A program made the position numbers and the translations under genes. The notes beneath the pieces are model-generated. The model did not search any database. It saw nothing but the letters and a program-made list of their open reading frames with translations, and was not told where the DNA came from. Of a stretch of 64,000 nucleotides of DNA, positions 16,210 through 49,552 are shown one piece after another. The stretch is taken from positions 32,001 through 96,000 of IMG/VR virus record IMGVR_UViG_3300037524_002067, one strand, 5' to 3'. The DNA comes from a virus. How positions within the stretch are numbered: position 1 is the first letter of the stretch; every line of letters starts with the position of its first letter.

Positions 16210-16233
16210 ACATACTGGGAAATTAAAAACTAG

Positions 16234-16318
16234 AAGCGGGGGTCAGATTCGAACTGACGTTCTCTTTCGAGTTAAAGGTTATGAGCCTTCGCTGGATCCA
16301 ACTCCAGTCGACCCCGCA
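16234..16318 (-). tRNA. tRNA-Met(CAT), initiator-like, long variable arm
   Basis: GCGGGG/CCCCGC acceptor with 1:72 mismatch, loop CTCATAA, GTTCGAATC T-loop. Confidence 0.7.
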
Positions 16319-16468: not shown

Positions 16469-16481
16469 AGAGTTTGTTCTG

Positions 16482-16565
16482 TACCAGCGGTGGGACTCAA
16501 ACCCACAATACCACAGGGTATCCGCTTATGAGGCGGACGCAATTATCACATCTGCTCACACTGGC
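16482..16565 (-). tRNA. tRNA-Met/Ile2(CAT), long variable arm
   Basis: TCCGC-CTCATAA-GCGGA anticodon arm; GCCAGTG/CGCTGGT acceptor. Confidence 0.7.
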
Positions 16566-19120: not shown

Positions 19121-19203
19121 AGCGAGTTGGGGTAGTCGAAACCCCATATATGCATTGGAAGTGCATCATAATACGCCTTTAAGCTCCGTTATACTAAACT
19201 CGC
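19121..19203 (-). tRNA. tRNA-Gly(TCC), expanded D-loop
   Basis: ATGCA-CTTCCAA-TGCAT arm; GCGAGTT/AACTCGC acceptor, U73. Confidence 0.7.
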
Positions 19204-20063: not shown

Positions 20064-20135
20064 TGTTCGTTGTTTTTTTACTATTATAAATAATAACAAA
20101 AAAACTTCGGGCACAGGTTTTTAAAAAATAATTTG

Positions 20136-20221
20136 TGGAAATGACGGGACTCGAACCCGCATTAGAACTTTCGTCCGTCCTGATTGCAAATCAGGTGCCT
20201 AACCAATTAGACTACATCCCC
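20136..20221 (-). tRNA. tRNA-Ala(TGC), long variable arm
   Basis: G3:U70 pair, CCTGA-TTTGCAA-TCAGG arm. Confidence 0.75.
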
Positions 20222-20226
20222 ATTTG

Positions 20227-20300
20227 TGGAGGTAAACGGATTCGAACCGATGACCCCCTGCGTGCAAGGCAGGTGCTCTAGCCAGCTGAGCTATACCCCC
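20227..20300 (-). tRNA. tRNA-Ala(TGC)
   Basis: canonical cloverleaf, G3:U70, loop CTTGCAC. Confidence 0.92.
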
Positions 20301-21156: not shown

Positions 21157-21275
21157 AGTTGTAATTTTTGTCTAGGTTTTCTTCCTAACAATTGCTTTTA
21201 GAAGCTGACACATCCTCTGACGTGCCATCCCATGTACTTAGGGTAGCCTTTCAGCAACTTCTAAACTTTTTAATG

Positions 21276-21362
21276 CGGGACTGAAGGGAGTCGAACCCTC
21301 TACGAGATTTTCATCTGCACCACATAGACAGTGTGGCATACCAGCCGTTATACGCCAGCCCC
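21276..21362 (-). tRNA. tRNA-Asp(GTC), long variable arm
   Basis: CCACA-CTGTCTA-TGTGG arm, G73. Confidence 0.75.
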
Positions 21363-21393
21363 AATTTGATTTTTATCTAGGTTTTCTCCTAGT

Positions 21394-21469
21394 TGGCAGT
21401 GCATACGGGGGTCGAACCCGCTCCTCAACCGCAGACAACGGCGCATCTTAACCATTTGACCTATGCACT
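21394..21469 (-). tRNA. tRNA-Asp(GTC)
   Basis: loop TTGTCTG, GCCA end. Confidence 0.75.
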
Positions 21470-41944: not shown

Positions 41945-42682
41945 TTATTTTTTTAAAAATAACTCCCCCATTTTACGTGCAAGAGCTTCCTTTAGTTGCA
42001 AATTTAATGAAAATTCTTGAATATCCAAACCCAACTCTCTGGCAATCATCTGGATGTTTTTCAACCCTTCTTCATTCATGTTTGCTTTCCTAAGTTTTAC
42101 CATGTAATCTTCATCAAAAAGATATAACACATGTTTTTCACCATCTGATTTTGACATTTTCTTCGTGGGGTCAATCAACGACATTACCTTATCCACATGC
42201 CCAAATTCATATGCATAATCATCTCTACCACCAACACGCTTACAAATATCGTTTGCAAGCTCTATGTGAGCAACCTGATCCCTGCCAACAATAATTACGT
42301 CTGGGTCATTGATCATAATATCAGCTGCCATTAAAACGGGATATAAAAGCAAACCCATATCGTACTCAACCTTGTCTTTTTTATCTTTATACTGAGGCAT
42401 CTTTAACAGTGTGGCAATATTTACCTTACAGCAAATTTTGAAAAAAAGTTCTGTATACAAAGGTGTTTGGTGCACAATTTTTTTGCACCCCAAACGAATA
42501 AGCTCTTGCTCAGTTTTATCTGAATAACTATCGGTTGTCAAAGAATGGTAATTGGCAATCAAAAAAGTCACATCATGACCTTGCTCTTGCAAATCAATAC
42601 CTTTCTTAAGACAACCAAGATAGTTGCCTATGTGAAGTTTGTTAGTCGGTTGAATGCCGATTAATATTTTTTTTGTTTTCAT
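41945..42682 (-). CDS. trpS: tryptophanyl-tRNA synthetase (compact)
   Basis: GIQPT..LHIGNYLG, YPVLMAADI, VGRDQ..H.EL, KMSKS; start reassigned to MKTKK. Confidence 0.92.
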   Translation of the reverse strand: MKTKKILIGIQPTNKLHIGNYLGCLKKGIDLQEQGHDVTFLIANYHSLTTDSYSDKTEQELIRLGCKKIVHQTPLYTELFFKICCKVNIATLLKMPQYKDKKDKVEYDMGLLLYPVLMAADIMINDPDVIIVGRDQVAHIELANDICKRVGGRDDYAYEFGHVDKVMSLIDPTKKMSKSDGEKHVLYLFDEDYMVKLRKANMNEEGLKNIQMIARELGLDIQEFSLNLQLKEALARKMGELFLKK

Positions 42683-42684
42683 CG

Positions 42685-42769
42685 CACGTCGAAGAGGATT
42701 CGAACCCCTGTGAGACCTAAGTCTGCTGGTTTTGGAGACCAGTGCTATCAACCACTCTGCCATCGACGT
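42685..42769 (-). tRNA. tRNA-Trp(CCA) with long variable arm
   Basis: CTGGT-CTCCAAA-ACCAG arm, A1:U72, G73, variable stem AGAC/GTCT. Confidence 0.8.
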
Positions 42770-43071: not shown

Positions 43072-43077
43072 ATTTTG

Positions 43078-43150
43078 CACGAGTGGCAGGCATCGAACCC
43101 GCAACCTTTGGTTTTGGAGACCACTACTCTACCAATTGAGCTACACTCGT
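43078..43150 (-). tRNA. tRNA-Trp(CCA)
   Basis: canonical cloverleaf, loop CTCCAAA, G73. Confidence 0.92.
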
Positions 43151-43747: not shown

Positions 43748-43844
43748 ATTCTTTTATTTAAATATAAAGAAAAATAACTCCAATTACTAATCAATTTAAA
43801 AAATAATCTATTAGTAATTTAAATAACTATTTCAAAGAACTTTG

Positions 43845-43921
43845 TGATCGCCACGGGAGTCGAACCCGTATGTGTCCAATTACTCTTTCAACTGCTTAGA
43901 AGGCAGAGGAGTTATGCGACC
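43845..43921 (-). tRNA. non-canonical tRNA-Arg(TCT) lacking a D-arm
   Basis: CTGC-CTTCTAA-GCAG arm only about 8 nt after the acceptor strand; normal T-arm. Confidence 0.6.
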
Positions 43922-43928
43922 TTTTTTG

Positions 43929-44005
43929 TGACCACCACGGGATTCGAACCCATATGCATCCACTTACTCTTTCAACGGTTTAGGAAACCGAGGAGATATG
44001 CGGCC
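43929..44005 (-). tRNA. non-canonical tRNA-Arg(CCT) lacking a D-arm
   Basis: CGGT-TTCCTAA-ACCG arm; same architecture as its neighbour. Confidence 0.6.
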
Positions 44006-44009
44006 ATTT

Positions 44010-44086
44010 GTGATTGATAATTGTGGAATCGAACCACTGAGTTTTTACACTCCGACACCTTGAGCTCAAGTCAATTTACCAATCAC
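44010..44086 (-). ncRNA. tRNA-like RNA with extended terminal stem
   Basis: GTGATTGGTAA/TTATCAATCAC stem, GTGG-TTCGATT-CCAC T-arm. Confidence 0.4.
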
Positions 44087-44090
44087 TTTG

Positions 44091-44162
44091 TAGTCCCACT
44101 AGGAATCGAACCTAGATAATTGGTTTAGAAAACCAAGGCTTTATCCATTAAGCTATGGGACC
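44091..44162 (-). tRNA. tRNA-Arg(TCT)
   Basis: canonical cloverleaf, TTGGT-TTTCTAA-ACCAA arm. Confidence 0.88.
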
Positions 44163-44240: not shown

Positions 44241-44322
44241 TGTTGAGGGGAGGATTCGAACCACCAGATGATCAGTACGTACTTAATCACCTTTTCCAAA
44301 CGCATGCTTATTTGACCTCAAC
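44241..44322 (-). tRNA. degenerate tRNA, possibly Arg(ACG)
   Basis: GTTGAGG/CCTCAAC acceptor, GGTTCGAATCC, GTACGTA in an irregular arm. Confidence 0.4.
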
Positions 44323-44519: not shown

Positions 44520-44608
44520 AGGAGAGCATAGGATTCGAACCTAATGCGGGTCTTCCCCGCACCCTTTGTTTAGCAAACAAGGACTAGCCCAAGCCAGCAT
44601 TACTCTCC
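44520..44608 (-). tRNA. tRNA-Ser(GCT)
   Basis: loop TTGCTAA, long variable arm. Confidence 0.8.
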
Positions 44609-44688
44609 AATTTTATCTCCGCATTTTTGCGGAGATTACGATGTTTATTCACCGCACAAAAATAAAAAACAATACGTCAAAAAACTTT

Positions 44689-44774
44689 TGGCGGAAGATA
44701 TAGGAATCGAACCCTGCCCTTGCGGACCGCCCCATGCTTCAAACATGGTTGACCACCGATGGTCGCTACCTTCC
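44689..44774 (-). tRNA. atypical tRNA-Ser(TGA) with 8-bp acceptor stem
   Basis: GGAAGGTA/TATCTTCC, GACCA-TCGG-TGGTC D-arm, loop TTTGAAG, GCCA end. Confidence 0.7.
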
Positions 44775-45271: not shown

Positions 45272-45303
45272 AAAAAACCCTGGCTTTTTGTGAGCCAGGG
45301 TTT
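45272..45303 (-). terminator. attenuator terminator of tRNA array 2
   Basis: AAACCCTGGCT-loop-AGCCAGGGTTTTTT. Confidence 0.85.
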
Positions 45304-49471: not shown

Positions 49472-49480
49472 TTATTTTTG

Positions 49481-49552
49481 TGATCCATGTCGGGATCGAA
49501 CCGACGACCTTGGTTTTTAGAGAACCTCGCTCTGCCGCTGAGCTAATGGATC
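49481..49552 (-). tRNA. amber suppressor tRNA (CTA anticodon)
   Basis: canonical cloverleaf: GATCCAT/ATGGATC, GCTC/GAGC, GGTT-CTCTAAA-AACC, GTCGG-TTCGATC-CCGAC, A73. Confidence 0.9.

What the first reader, a model, noticed from the sequence alone, without database searches (positions are those of the whole stretch)
43845..44005. Tandem D-armless tRNA-Arg(TCT) and tRNA-Arg(CCT) with a shared novel fold
Seen: both have acceptor strand, TA, (A/T)CTC-CT, anticodon arm, TTGAAAGAGTAA(T/G)TGGA..CAT, then a normal T-arm. There is no D hairpin before the anticodon arm. CTC can pair with GAG after it, and a D-loop-like AAnTGGA sits in the variable position. The anticodon stems covary (CTGC/GCAG versus CGGT/ACCG) and the anticodons read AGA and AGG, the two Arg codons used in the leader peptide. 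Inference: a functional rearranged tRNA architecture, possibly evading tRNA-targeting defences.
Basis: partly seen in the sequence, partly recalled or inferred. Interest (0 to 1): 0.72.

Follow-up and report, generated by a model that had tools for sequence, protein, structure and literature searches.

The report
Rewired non-cloverleaf phage tRNA genes
Two neighbouring genes in this large phage encode arginine tRNAs whose D-arm pieces are joined in a different order from the textbook cloverleaf. They belong to a large family that gene finders miss, with arginine and isoleucine versions in hundreds of phage genomes, including lab-grown Streptomyces and crAss-like phages.

Summary
On the minus strand, 43921-43845 (anticodon UCU) and 44005-43929 (CCU) share one layout. 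It runs: 7-bp acceptor, UA, a short strand, a 4-bp anticodon arm, UUGAAA, the complementary strand, a D-loop-like AAnUGGA, CAU, and a normal T arm.

ARAGORN and Rfam's tRNA model miss both. They are not oddities of one genome.

The 3-bp helix that encloses the anticodon arm is paired in every one of 93 + 70 sequences, with up to four pair types per position.

The base after GG tracks the anticodon. A goes with Arg anticodons (89 of 90). U goes with Ile-type anticodons and discriminator A (67 of 67). These match the bacterial ArgRS (A20) and IleRS (U20, A73) identity rules.

Copies lie unannotated in tRNA arrays of cultured Streptomyces, Microbacterium and crAss-like phages that encode no ArgRS or IleRS.

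Best reading: working tRNAs with a non-circularly permuted core, charged by host enzymes. Expression and charging are not shown, and defence evasion is untested. I found no publication describing them. First readers of this scan noted the same fold in another genome.

The parts
43845..43921 (-). Permuted-core tRNA-Arg(UCU), element A, 77 nt, no encoded CCA
   Evidence: Sequence parse. R1 scores it at 88.4 bits, E 3e-24 (A is in R1's seed). The minimum-free-energy fold gives the same helices.
43929..44005 (-). Permuted-core tRNA-Arg(CCU), element B, 77 nt, no encoded CCA
   Evidence: Sequence parse. R1 scores it at 81.3 bits, E 4e-22 (B is in R1's seed).
43898..43900 (-). Anticodon UCU of A, in the 7-nt loop CUUCUAA (43902-43896)
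43982..43984 (-). Anticodon CCU of B, in the 7-nt loop UUCCUAA (43986-43980)
43909..43912 (-). A: 5' strand of the helix that encloses the anticodon arm (ACUC). I read it as the equivalent of canonical nucleotides 22-25.
   Evidence: It pairs with 43885-43882. The three inner pairs are paired in 93 of 93 and 70 of 70 family members.
43882..43885 (-). A: 3' strand of that helix (GAGU). I read it as the equivalent of canonical 10-13.
43886..43891 (-). A: linker UUGAAA between the anticodon stem and the enclosing helix. G33, A35 and A36 are invariant in the family and A34 nearly so.
43873..43881 (-). A: D-loop-like AAUUGGACA. The A after GG (43875, model position 47) is read as the equivalent of identity nucleotide A20.
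   Evidence: Compare the D loop AAUGGAUAA of the canonical tRNA-Arg at 44162-44091. Position 47 is coupled to the anticodon.
43853..43869 (-). A: canonical T arm (5 bp, loop UUCGACU)
43957..43965 (-). B: D-loop-like AAGUGGAUG. Position 47 is the A at 43959.
43966..43969 (-). B: 3' strand GAGU of the enclosing helix. Its 5' partner UCUC lies at 43996-43993.
44091..44162 (-). Canonical cloverleaf tRNA-Arg(UCU) in the same array, used for comparison
   Evidence: ARAGORN; Rfam tRNA 69.3 bits
45342..45431 (-). Upstream 29-codon leader ORF rich in Ser, Arg and Trp. Its Arg codons are AGA three times and AGG once.
45275..45303 (-). Intrinsic-terminator-like hairpin after the leader. It is the only strong terminator-like site on the minus strand between the leader and the array.

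Best explanation
Both elements are genes for working elongator tRNA-Arg molecules that read AGA and AGG, and their core is a non-circular permutation of the cloverleaf.

After U8-A9 the chain runs straight into a 10-nt strand that forms one side of a continuous helix. That helix is a U·U pair, three Watson-Crick pairs, a two-nucleotide hinge and a 4-bp anticodon stem. This strand takes the place of canonical nucleotides 22-31.

After the anticodon loop, a looped-out linker (NWGAAA) leads into the partner strand, which takes the place of canonical 10-13. That strand continues into a D-loop-like AAnUGGAYA, the equivalent of 14-21. Three nucleotides (CAU, ending in the equivalent of Y48) then join it to a normal T arm.

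Inferred consequences, not shown here:
- The usual tertiary partners (U8·A14, R15·Y48, G18G19 with the T loop) can still meet.
- The two coaxial stacks keep their canonical lengths (12 bp and 10 layers).
- The RNA is therefore still L-shaped and fits ArgRS, EF-Tu and the ribosome.
- The host ArgRS charges it through C35, U36 and the A after GG, which stands in for A20.

Why phages keep this fold is not known. My leading guess is that the rebuilt junction between the D stem and the anticodon stem escapes a host tRNA-directed nuclease or enzyme. That remains speculation.
For: Shown by tools:
1. Family size. There are 157 distinct 77-nt members in 180 viral contigs, plus 76-nt and other layout variants.
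2. Structure. In 93 Arg-type sequences the three pairs enclosing the anticodon arm are always paired, with CG, AU, GC and UA all seen at each position. The acceptor, anticodon and T stems are 98-100% paired. No shuffle out of 500 reaches the observed covariation score, and versions with the 3' partners slid by 1-3 columns drop to 38-49% paired.
3. The 70-sequence Ile-type set gives the same result. All but one of those sequences (the Kehishuvirus copy) were absent from the alignment used to build the model. RNAalifold predicts the same helices on its own.
4. Identity coupling. With A at position 47, 89 of 90 distinct sequences carry Arg anticodons (UCU 38, ACG 36, CCU 11, UCG 3, GCG 1). With U at position 47, 66 of 67 carry UAU, GAU or CAU and one carries UAC, and all 67 have discriminator A. 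Bacterial identity sets are A20, C35, U/G36 and A/G73 for Arg, and U20, A35, U36 and A73 for Ile (PMC9976931).
5. Context. 118 of 188 copies lie within 300 nt of a canonical tRNA gene. Only 9 of 188 fetched loci also hold a canonical tRNA with the same anticodon. In Kehishuvirus 'tikkala' the permuted copy fills a 90-nt gap in a 23-tRNA array and is its only GAU.
6. Many members encode CCA after the discriminator.
7. In all four layout variants the 5' strand from nucleotide 10 to the last anticodon-stem nucleotide is 10 nt, while the linker length varies.
8. Demand in this phage. AGA and AGG make up 79% of Arg codons in 49 long ORFs, and the upstream leader uses only AGA and AGG for Arg.
9. 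Complete genomes of Yaboi, Kehishuvirus and LPML1 carry members but have no ArgRS or IleRS-type domain.
10. E. coli HisRS, EF-Tu and ribosomes accept an artificial tRNA with the D arm removed (PMC11551756).
Against: There is no direct evidence of transcription, end maturation or aminoacylation.
- RNA-library contigs cover the array at low depth, but DNA carry-over cannot be excluded.
- The mapping onto canonical tertiary contacts is inference. The proposed partners are invariant, so covariation cannot test them.
- RNAalifold offers an alternative 2-bp mini-hairpin (U44-A51, G45-C50) that would compete with the elbow contact.
- Both window copies have an A·G mismatch at acceptor pair 7:70, seen in only 3 of 93 members. 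Both lack an encoded CCA.
- The search patterns fixed much of the core, so core conservation is overestimated.
- A canonical tRNA-Arg(UCU) lies 170 nt away, so element A is redundant in this phage.
Confidence: 0.75

Rival explanations
1. They are working tRNAs, but the fold is a flexible Y- or boomerang-shaped D-armless tRNA, as in animal mitochondrial tRNA-Ser(AGY). The enclosing helix only lengthens the anticodon arm. The UGG segment forms a local mini-hairpin or stays single-stranded instead of docking on the T loop.
For: RNAalifold places an invariant 2-bp hairpin at U44-A51 / G45-C50. [quoted passage not shown]
Against: The nearly invariant A-A-n-U-G-G plus the T-loop UUCRA is what an elbow contact would need. 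Position 47 behaves as identity nucleotide 20, which ArgRS reads in the D-loop pocket at the corner of the L. The 5' strand keeps exactly 10 nt in every layout variant.
Confidence: 0.15
2. They are tRNA mimics that are not used in decoding. They would act as decoys or sponges for a host anticodon nuclease, for ArgRS or IleRS, or for another tRNA-binding defence or regulatory protein.
For: Phage tRNAs can neutralise tRNA-cleaving defences (PMC10264068, listed; the OLD preprint). This phage carries several other odd tRNA-like RNAs. Element A duplicates a canonical UCU tRNA.
Against: A nuclease decoy would not need an acceptor stem, a discriminator, a position-20 equivalent and an encoded CCA that all follow the aminoacylation rules of two different synthetases. 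In most arrays the permuted copy is the only gene with its anticodon.
Confidence: 0.08
3. They are precursors that RNA processing (cutting and re-ligation, as for circularly permuted or split tRNA genes) turns into an ordinary cloverleaf.
For: Circularly permuted tRNA genes exist in the red alga Cyanidioschyzon and are repaired through a circular intermediate (PMC3728597, abstract listed; PMC10085705).
Against: Here the 5' and 3' acceptor strands are already at the two ends and pair with each other. The rearrangement is an internal block swap, which circularisation cannot undo. Restoring the canonical order would take two cuts and two ligations inside 40 nt. By eye I saw no bulge-helix-bulge-like motifs (not formally scanned). 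The linkers are only 2 and 6 nt.
Confidence: 0.03
4. They are decayed tRNA pseudogenes or chance look-alikes.
For: Standard tRNA finders reject them.
Against: Hundreds of distinct copies keep every helix through compensatory changes. Element A is letter-for-letter identical in wastewater relatives whose neighbouring sequence differs.
Confidence: 0.01

Closest known systems
Canonical bacterial and phage tRNA-Arg (cloverleaf, Rfam RF00005), for example the tRNA-Arg(UCU) at 44091-44162 of this window
   Same: 7-bp acceptor stem and 5-bp T arm with a UUCRA loop. 7-nt anticodon loop with U33 and A37. C35/U36 and an A/G discriminator. A D-loop motif A-A-(n)-U-G-G-A. The gene sits in a phage tRNA array.
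   Different: The D stem does not close its own hairpin. Its two strands flank the anticodon arm, and the D-loop motif follows the second strand. The anticodon stem has 4 bp plus a U·N. The element scores below the threshold of every Rfam tRNA model, and ARAGORN misses it.
Animal mitochondrial D-arm-less tRNAs (bovine/human mt-tRNA-Ser(AGY), Ascaris mt-tRNA-Ser(UCU); reviewed in PMC7609411)
   Same: No D hairpin between the acceptor and anticodon stems, an extended anticodon helix, and a working role in translation.
   Different: Those are organellar, have lost the G18G19 elbow motif, and work with co-evolved mitochondrial synthetases and EF-Tu. The phage family keeps a D-loop motif in a new place and must use ordinary bacterial enzymes.
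Circularly permuted tRNA genes of Cyanidioschyzon merolae (PMC3728597)
   Same: The gene order of tRNA segments differs from the cloverleaf order.
   Different: That permutation is circular, is undone by processing, and yields a canonical mature tRNA. Here the permutation is internal and non-circular, and it should persist in the mature RNA.
Non-circularly permuted hammerhead ribozyme (Eckert et al. 2023, PMC10085705) and the plant-virus tRNA-like structure of TYMV (discussed in PMC11472068)
   Same: A conserved 3D architecture is kept with a different backbone connectivity. The TYMV structure is charged by a class Ia synthetase (ValRS).
   Different: The hammerhead is a ribozyme, not a tRNA. 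The TYMV structure is the 3' end of a viral genome and is not an adaptor in decoding.
allo-tRNAs and tRNA-Sec (8/4, 9/3 or 9/4 acceptor/T branches; PMC5389517)
   Same: Natural non-standard tRNAs found in bacteria and phages by metagenome mining. Element A's only weak Rfam hit is to the tRNA-Sec model.
   Different: Those keep all four arms in cloverleaf order and have a long variable arm. The elements here have a 7/5 branch, no variable arm and re-ordered D parts.
Phage T5-type tRNAs that resist host anticodon nucleases through anticodon-loop changes (PMC10264068)
   Same: Phage-encoded isoacceptors whose differences from host tRNAs are proposed to defeat tRNA-targeting defence.
   Different: Those are ordinary cloverleaves with point changes. 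Resistance has not been tested for the permuted family.

Membership tests
Canonical cloverleaf tRNA (Rfam RF00005 / ARAGORN model) | 7-bp acceptor stem with an unpaired discriminator | tested here: met
   Columns 1-7 pair with 70-76 in 97.7% of cells, and all 7 pairs covary. A and B each have one A·G mismatch at pair 7:70.
Canonical cloverleaf tRNA (Rfam RF00005 / ARAGORN model) | 5-bp T stem with a 7-nt UUCRANY loop | tested here: met
   98.9% of cells paired; T58, C60 and A62 are invariant.
Canonical cloverleaf tRNA (Rfam RF00005 / ARAGORN model) | D stem-loop hairpin between nucleotides 9 and 26 | tested here: not met
   Only 6 nt separate A9 from the anticodon stem. The complementary strand lies 3' of the anticodon arm.
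Canonical cloverleaf tRNA (Rfam RF00005 / ARAGORN model) | Detection at or above the model's threshold | tested here: not met
   There is no RF00005 hit at the gathering score. Only tRNA-Sec hits A, at 23.8 bits against a threshold of 47. ARAGORN finds 0 of 93 members.
Bacterial tRNA-Arg identity set (PMC9976931, Table 1) | C35 with U36 or G36 | tested here: met
   The anticodons are UCU and CCU. Family members with A at position 47 carry UCU, CCU, ACG, UCG or GCG in 89 of 90 distinct sequences.
Bacterial tRNA-Arg identity set (PMC9976931, Table 1) | A20 in the D-loop variable pocket | tested here: inconclusive
   An A follows GG in both elements (43875 and 43959). Across the family this position is A with Arg anticodons and U with Ile-type anticodons. 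That fits position 20, but the equivalence rests on inference, not on a structure.
Bacterial tRNA-Arg identity set (PMC9976931, Table 1) | Discriminator A73 or G73 | tested here: met
   A in both elements. Among members with A at position 47: G 51, A 33, U 6.
Bacterial tRNA-Arg identity set (PMC9976931, Table 1) | Aminoacylation by ArgRS | not testable with these tools
   This needs a charging assay. No ArgRS domain was found in the 154-kb record or in three complete carrier genomes.
Mitochondrial-type D-arm-less tRNA | No D hairpin; a short connector from the acceptor stem to an extended anticodon helix | tested here: met
Mitochondrial-type D-arm-less tRNA | Loss of the G18G19 / T-loop elbow elements | tested here: not met
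   G45 and G46 are invariant in 163 aligned members and the T loop is canonical. The search patterns had fixed GG.
Circularly permuted tRNA gene | The 3' half is encoded upstream of the 5' half, so the acceptor strands are internal to the transcript | tested here: not met
   The acceptor strands lie at the two ends and pair with each other.
tRNA-Sec / allo-tRNA | Acceptor/T branch of 13 bp, or 12 bp split 8/4 or 9/3, with a long variable arm | tested here: not met
   The branch is 7/5, and 12 unpaired nucleotides precede the T arm. The tRNA-Sec score is below threshold.

The most novel reading that the evidence does not exclude
Phages have evolved and spread a topologically permuted class of tRNA, with Arg, Ile and occasional Val or Met-like anticodons, all served by class Ia synthetases. 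Ordinary bacterial synthetases, EF-Tu and ribosomes accept it. Its rebuilt junction between the D stem and the anticodon stem makes it invisible or resistant to host tRNA-directed nucleases that cut or amputate the anticodon arm. On this reading it is a structural counter-defence. It would also be the first natural non-circular permutation of tRNA.
Probability: 0.25. Interest if true: 0.95.

Novelty: new variant of a known kind. Interest (0 to 1): 0.88.

Why it matters

If these RNAs are charged and used, several things follow.
- The cloverleaf connectivity is not obligatory for bacterial-type translation.
- Standard bacterial ArgRS and IleRS can read a position-20 equivalent presented on a different backbone.
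- Natural non-circular permutation, reported so far only for a hammerhead ribozyme (PMC10085705), also occurs in tRNA.

There are practical consequences too.
- tRNA gene finders miss one or more tRNA genes in many phage genomes. That biases tRNA counts, codon-usage arguments and host prediction.
- At least one related copy appears to be mis-annotated: the 'tRNA-Val(aac)' of Streptomyces phage Yaboi looks like a permuted tRNA-Arg(UCU).
- The fold is a ready-made candidate scaffold for orthogonal tRNAs.
- Carriers include cultured SEA-PHAGES Streptomyces and Microbacterium phages and a cultured crAss-like phage, so every claim can be tested at the bench.

Tried and rejected
- Standard detection. 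ARAGORN (0 of 93 members) and Rfam at the gathering score report nothing at the site. ARAGORN in relaxed or mitochondrial mode gives scattered and mostly wrong calls.
- Expression. One run search and one read lay were allowed. The wastewater 'RNA' runs X18 and X19 hold contigs over parts of the array. These contigs come from 90-95% identical relatives, and DNA carry-over cannot be excluded, so transcription is not shown. What the lay does show is that 43830-43923 is identical in two contigs whose flanks differ.
- Cellular genomes. The pattern scan of 185,579 species' genomes gave 89 loci, and only 12 matches passed the model at E <= 1e-5. These lie mostly on short MAG contigs, with one on a 61-kb contig of a Mesorhizobium isolate. 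The many Nostoc hits are a conserved coding sequence and are not this RNA.
- A dedicated synthetase. No ArgRS or IleRS/ValRS-type domain was found in the 154-kb record (ArgRS only tested there) or in Yaboi, Kehishuvirus and LPML1. Flanking ORFs gave only a TrpRS-like and an ArdC-like hit.
- Literature. Eight full-text searches found no description of a D-arm-less or permuted phage or bacterial tRNA.
- Pairing of U15 with N31 as a fifth anticodon-stem pair was rejected: 17% paired in the Arg set and 0% in the Ile set.
- Pairing of positions 10 and 40 is U·U in 160 of 163 sequences. It is A-U only in element A, one close relative (L060) and one Ile-type member.
- The pseudogene, processed-precursor and decoy readings are treated under rival explanations.

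Full report
**What is at the site**

Read on the minus strand, 43921-43845 (element A) and 44005-43929 (element B) are two 77-nt units separated by 7 nt. Each has, in order:
- a 7-nt acceptor strand, then UA
- a 4-nt strand (ACUC in A, UCUC in B), then CU
- a 4-bp stem with a 7-nt loop carrying UCU (A) or CCU (B)
- UUGAAA, then GAGU
- a D-loop-like A-A-n-U-G-G-A-n-n, then CAU
- a standard 5-bp T arm with a UUCGA-type loop
- the complementary acceptor strand and an A discriminator

There is no hairpin between the acceptor and anticodon stems. ARAGORN lists 18 tRNAs in the window but neither of these. Rfam's tRNA model does not reach threshold, and A alone gives a weak tRNA-Sec hit of 23.8 bits against a threshold of 47. 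The thermodynamic fold of A gives the acceptor stem, the ACUC/GAGU helix, the anticodon stem and the T arm. The ORF 45431-45342 uses AGA three times and AGG once for Arg.

**The two genes belong to a large family**

The window lies in a 154-kb IMG/VR virus record with 32% G+C. Its only distant DNA relatives among named phages are huge uncultured phages.

I scanned IMG/VR with the conserved motif. I then used patterns that left the proposed pairing strands free. After filtering by context, 117 distinct sequences had the same layout.

From 93 of them, including A, B and copies from two cultured phages, I built covariance model R1.
- R1 scores A at 88.4 bits and B at 81.3 bits. Both are in its seed alignment. 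Nothing else in the 154-kb genome exceeds 25.8 bits.
- Of 82 loci searched, 78 of them fetched by the third pattern, 81 matches passed at E <= 1e-6. Several loci hold two or three copies.

**Structure**

On the 93-sequence alignment all helices are supported by compensatory change. The acceptor stem is 97.7% paired, the anticodon stem 100% and the T stem 98.9%.

The decisive result concerns the three pairs 11:39, 12:38 and 13:37, which enclose the anticodon arm. They are standard pairs in all 279 cells, and CG, AU, GC and UA are all seen at each position. No shuffle out of 500 reaches the observed covariation. Sliding the 3' partners by 1-3 columns drops pairing to 38-49%. RNAalifold predicts the same helices without being told.

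The pair next to this helix, 10:40, is a conserved U·U; it is A-U in element A. Positions 15 and 31 are not a pair.

I saw four layout variants:
- the 77-nt type
- a 76-nt type with a 5-bp anticodon stem
- a 'type II' with a longer CGUUAAC-like linker, in Streptomyces phage Yaboi and Listeria phage LPML1
- a 75-nt Mesorhizobium copy

In all four the 5' strand from nucleotide 10 to the last anticodon-stem nucleotide is exactly 10 nt, while the 3' linker varies from 3 to 8 nt.

**Reading the fold (inference)**

Ten nucleotides is the length of canonical positions 22-31. I therefore read the 5' strand as the equivalent of 22-31, and the 3' strand (37-40) as the equivalent of 10-13. The rest of the mapping follows:
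- A41 and A42 correspond to A14 and R15.
- G45 and G46 correspond to G18 and G19.
- Position 47 corresponds to nucleotide 20, and A49 to A21.
- U52 corresponds to Y48, and the invariant G33 of the linker possibly to G45.

The canonical tRNA-Arg 170 nt upstream has the D loop AAUGGAUAA. Element A has AAUUGGACA in the new place.

In words, the block made of the D-stem 5' strand plus the D loop has changed places with the block made of the D-stem 3' strand plus the anticodon arm. This is a non-circular permutation. All the usual tertiary partners remain available, and both coaxial stacks keep their canonical lengths. These contacts are not shown here, because the partners are invariant and covariation cannot test them. 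RNAalifold's alternative 2-bp mini-hairpin (U44-A51, G45-C50) cannot be excluded.

**Evidence that these are real, chargeable tRNAs**

The strongest evidence is an internal natural experiment. I repeated the scan, this time requiring a base other than A after GG. That recovered a second large subfamily with the same fold. Its helices covary in the same way, and the three enclosing pairs are paired in 70 of 70 sequences.

The tally covers 157 distinct 77-nt sequences:
- With A at position 47: UCU 38, ACG 36, CCU 11, UCG 3, GCG 1, and a single GAU.
- With U at position 47: UAU 50, GAU 12, CAU 4, UAC 1, all 67 with discriminator A.

The published bacterial identity sets are A20, C35, U/G36 and A/G73 for Arg, and U20, A35, U36 and A73 for Ile (PMC9976931). 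So the base after GG behaves as nucleotide 20, and the RNAs follow the rules of two different synthetases. UCU and UAU differ by one base, which offers a simple route from one identity to the other.

Further points:
- Many members encode CCA.
- 118 of 188 copies lie within 300 nt of a canonical tRNA gene. Only 9 of 188 fetched loci also contain a canonical tRNA with the same anticodon.
- In the crAss-like Kehishuvirus 'tikkala' the permuted copy sits in the only gap of a 23-tRNA array and supplies its only GAU.

**Who carries them**

BLAST against GenBank phages finds unannotated copies in:
- Streptomyces phages: 45 records for the Arg-type query and 77 for the Ile-type query, mostly about 131 kb
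- Microbacterium phages A3Wally, Zooman and one more
- Kehishuvirus 'tikkala', uncultured crAss-like phages and Listeria phage LPML1

In nearly every row shown the annotated features under the match are 'none'.

Yaboi has three copies: CCU, GAU and a type II UCU. The type II copy is annotated tRNA-Val(aac), apparently because the linker was taken for an anticodon loop.

Yaboi, Kehishuvirus and LPML1 encode no ArgRS or IleRS-type enzyme, and no ArgRS was found in the window's record. Host enzymes from Actinobacteria and Bacteroidota would therefore have to accept the fold.

In one genome for each of 185,579 bacterial and archaeal species, only 12 model-confirmed matches turned up. Most lie on short MAG contigs. 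On present evidence the family is essentially viral.

**In this phage**

AGA and AGG make up 64.6% and 14.3% of Arg codons in 49 long ORFs. The array is transcribed in the same direction as a leader ORF rich in Ser, Arg and Trp. That leader is followed by the only strong minus-strand terminator-like hairpin in the region. Another agent of this scan read this arrangement as a codon-matched attenuator; I verified only its codons.

B is the only CCU tRNA I found in the genome. A duplicates the canonical UCU tRNA. In public runs the phage or close relatives occur in wetland, freshwater and wastewater samples. A 94-nt stretch containing A is identical in two wastewater contigs. In one of them, 82 other letters stand where B and the neighbouring tRNA-like element lie. 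RNA-library contigs cover the array, but they cannot prove transcription.

**Comparison with what is known**

- The nearest functional analogues are the D-arm-less mitochondrial tRNAs (PMC7609411). Those have lost the elbow motif and rely on co-evolved partners.
- Circularly permuted tRNA genes are repaired to cloverleaves (PMC3728597; PMC10085705).
- A 2024 paper states that all known bacterial tRNAs are cloverleaves. [quoted passage not shown] That makes function of the phage family plausible.
- Natural non-circular permutation of an RNA fold was first reported in 2023, for a hammerhead ribozyme. The TYMV tRNA-like structure aligns to tRNA only with a non-circular permutation (PMC11472068).
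- I found no paper describing this family. It is not in Rfam 15.
- First readers of this scan noted the same fold in another genome, without follow-up.

**Why phages keep it**

This is unknown. Recently described defence tRNases cut in or beside the anticodon stem: OLD after nucleotides 27-29, and a bacterial Schlafen at positions 29-32 and 39-41. The junction rebuilt in this fold lies next to those cut sites. A neutral origin followed by horizontal spread is also possible. Against that stands the strict conservation across very different phages, and the fact that the permuted copy is usually the only source of its anticodon in the fetched neighbourhood.

**Verdict**

The finding is much larger than the two genes: a widespread and unannotated class of phage tRNA with a permuted core, in Arg and Ile versions.

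Noticed in passing
IMG/VR loci L404-L520 (e.g. L431:3683-3759:-); Streptomyces phage Yaboi NC_048730.1 74542-74618; Kehishuvirus OQ198717.1 95577-95653: A second subfamily has the same permuted fold with U instead of A after GG, discriminator A, and Ile-type anticodons (UAU 50, GAU 12, CAU 4). One member, L441:4-80:+, carries UAC (Val).
   Followed up: yes
window 44010-44088 (-): A tRNA-like RNA lies between the canonical tRNA-Arg and element B. It has an 11-bp terminal stem, a 4-bp T arm with a UUCGAUU loop, and two small hairpins, none with a 7-nt anticodon loop (fold z-score -3.5). In a wastewater relative, 82 other letters stand where it and B lie.
   Followed up: partly
window 44241-44322 (-): Another tRNA-like RNA with a 7-bp acceptor stem and a T arm but an unrecognisable middle part. 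Rfam tRNA scores it at only 19.6 bits and ARAGORN misses it.
   Followed up: no
window 44520-44609 and 44693-44774 (-): Two tRNA-Sec-like or allo-tRNA-like RNAs (44.4 and 24.0 bits on RF01852, both below threshold). Their apparent anticodons are the Ser types GCU and UGA. They lie beside three ordinary tRNA-Ser genes.
   Followed up: no
window 42684-42769 vs 43077-43150; 21275-21363 vs 21394-21469; 20135-20221 vs 20226-20300; 16233-16318, 16481-16565 (all -): Trp, Asp and Ala each occur as one normal-length tRNA and one 86-89-nt tRNA with a long variable arm. Both Met tRNAs are long (alignment). The long tRNA-Trp overlaps the annotated start of a TrpRS-like ORF, 41945-42763 (PF00579).
   Followed up: no
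window 19121-19203 (-): A tRNA-like RNA with an acceptor stem, a T arm and an anticodon arm carrying UCC (Gly), but an oversized 27-nt D region. ARAGORN misses it. It surfaced as a 22-bit partial hit of model R1.
   Followed up: partly
window 49480-49552 (-): A canonical tRNA with anticodon CUA (amber suppressor, labelled Pyl by ARAGORN). It suggests TAG is read as a sense codon at some stage.
   Followed up: no
Streptomyces phage Yaboi NC_048730.1 86686-86764 (L529:13187-13265) and Listeria phage LPML1 OK283618.1 37713-37791: A 'type II' layout of the permuted fold has a 5-bp anticodon stem, anticodon UCU and a CGUUAAC-like linker. In Yaboi it is annotated tRNA-Val(aac), probably a mis-call that takes the linker for the anticodon loop.
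   Followed up: partly
Streptomyces phage Yaboi NC_048730.1 74011-74532 and 80556-82181: A nucleotidyltransferase-domain gene (gp177) ends 10 nt before the permuted tRNA-Ile(GAU), which lacks an encoded CCA. The same tRNA region also encodes a Ro-like RNA-binding protein.
   Followed up: no
L334:2737-2811:+ (Mesorhizobium sp. Root552, contig_18): This is the only isolate genome among the model-confirmed cellular hits. It carries a 75-nt variant with anticodon UCU and an encoded CCA. Whether it lies in a prophage was not checked.
   Followed up: no
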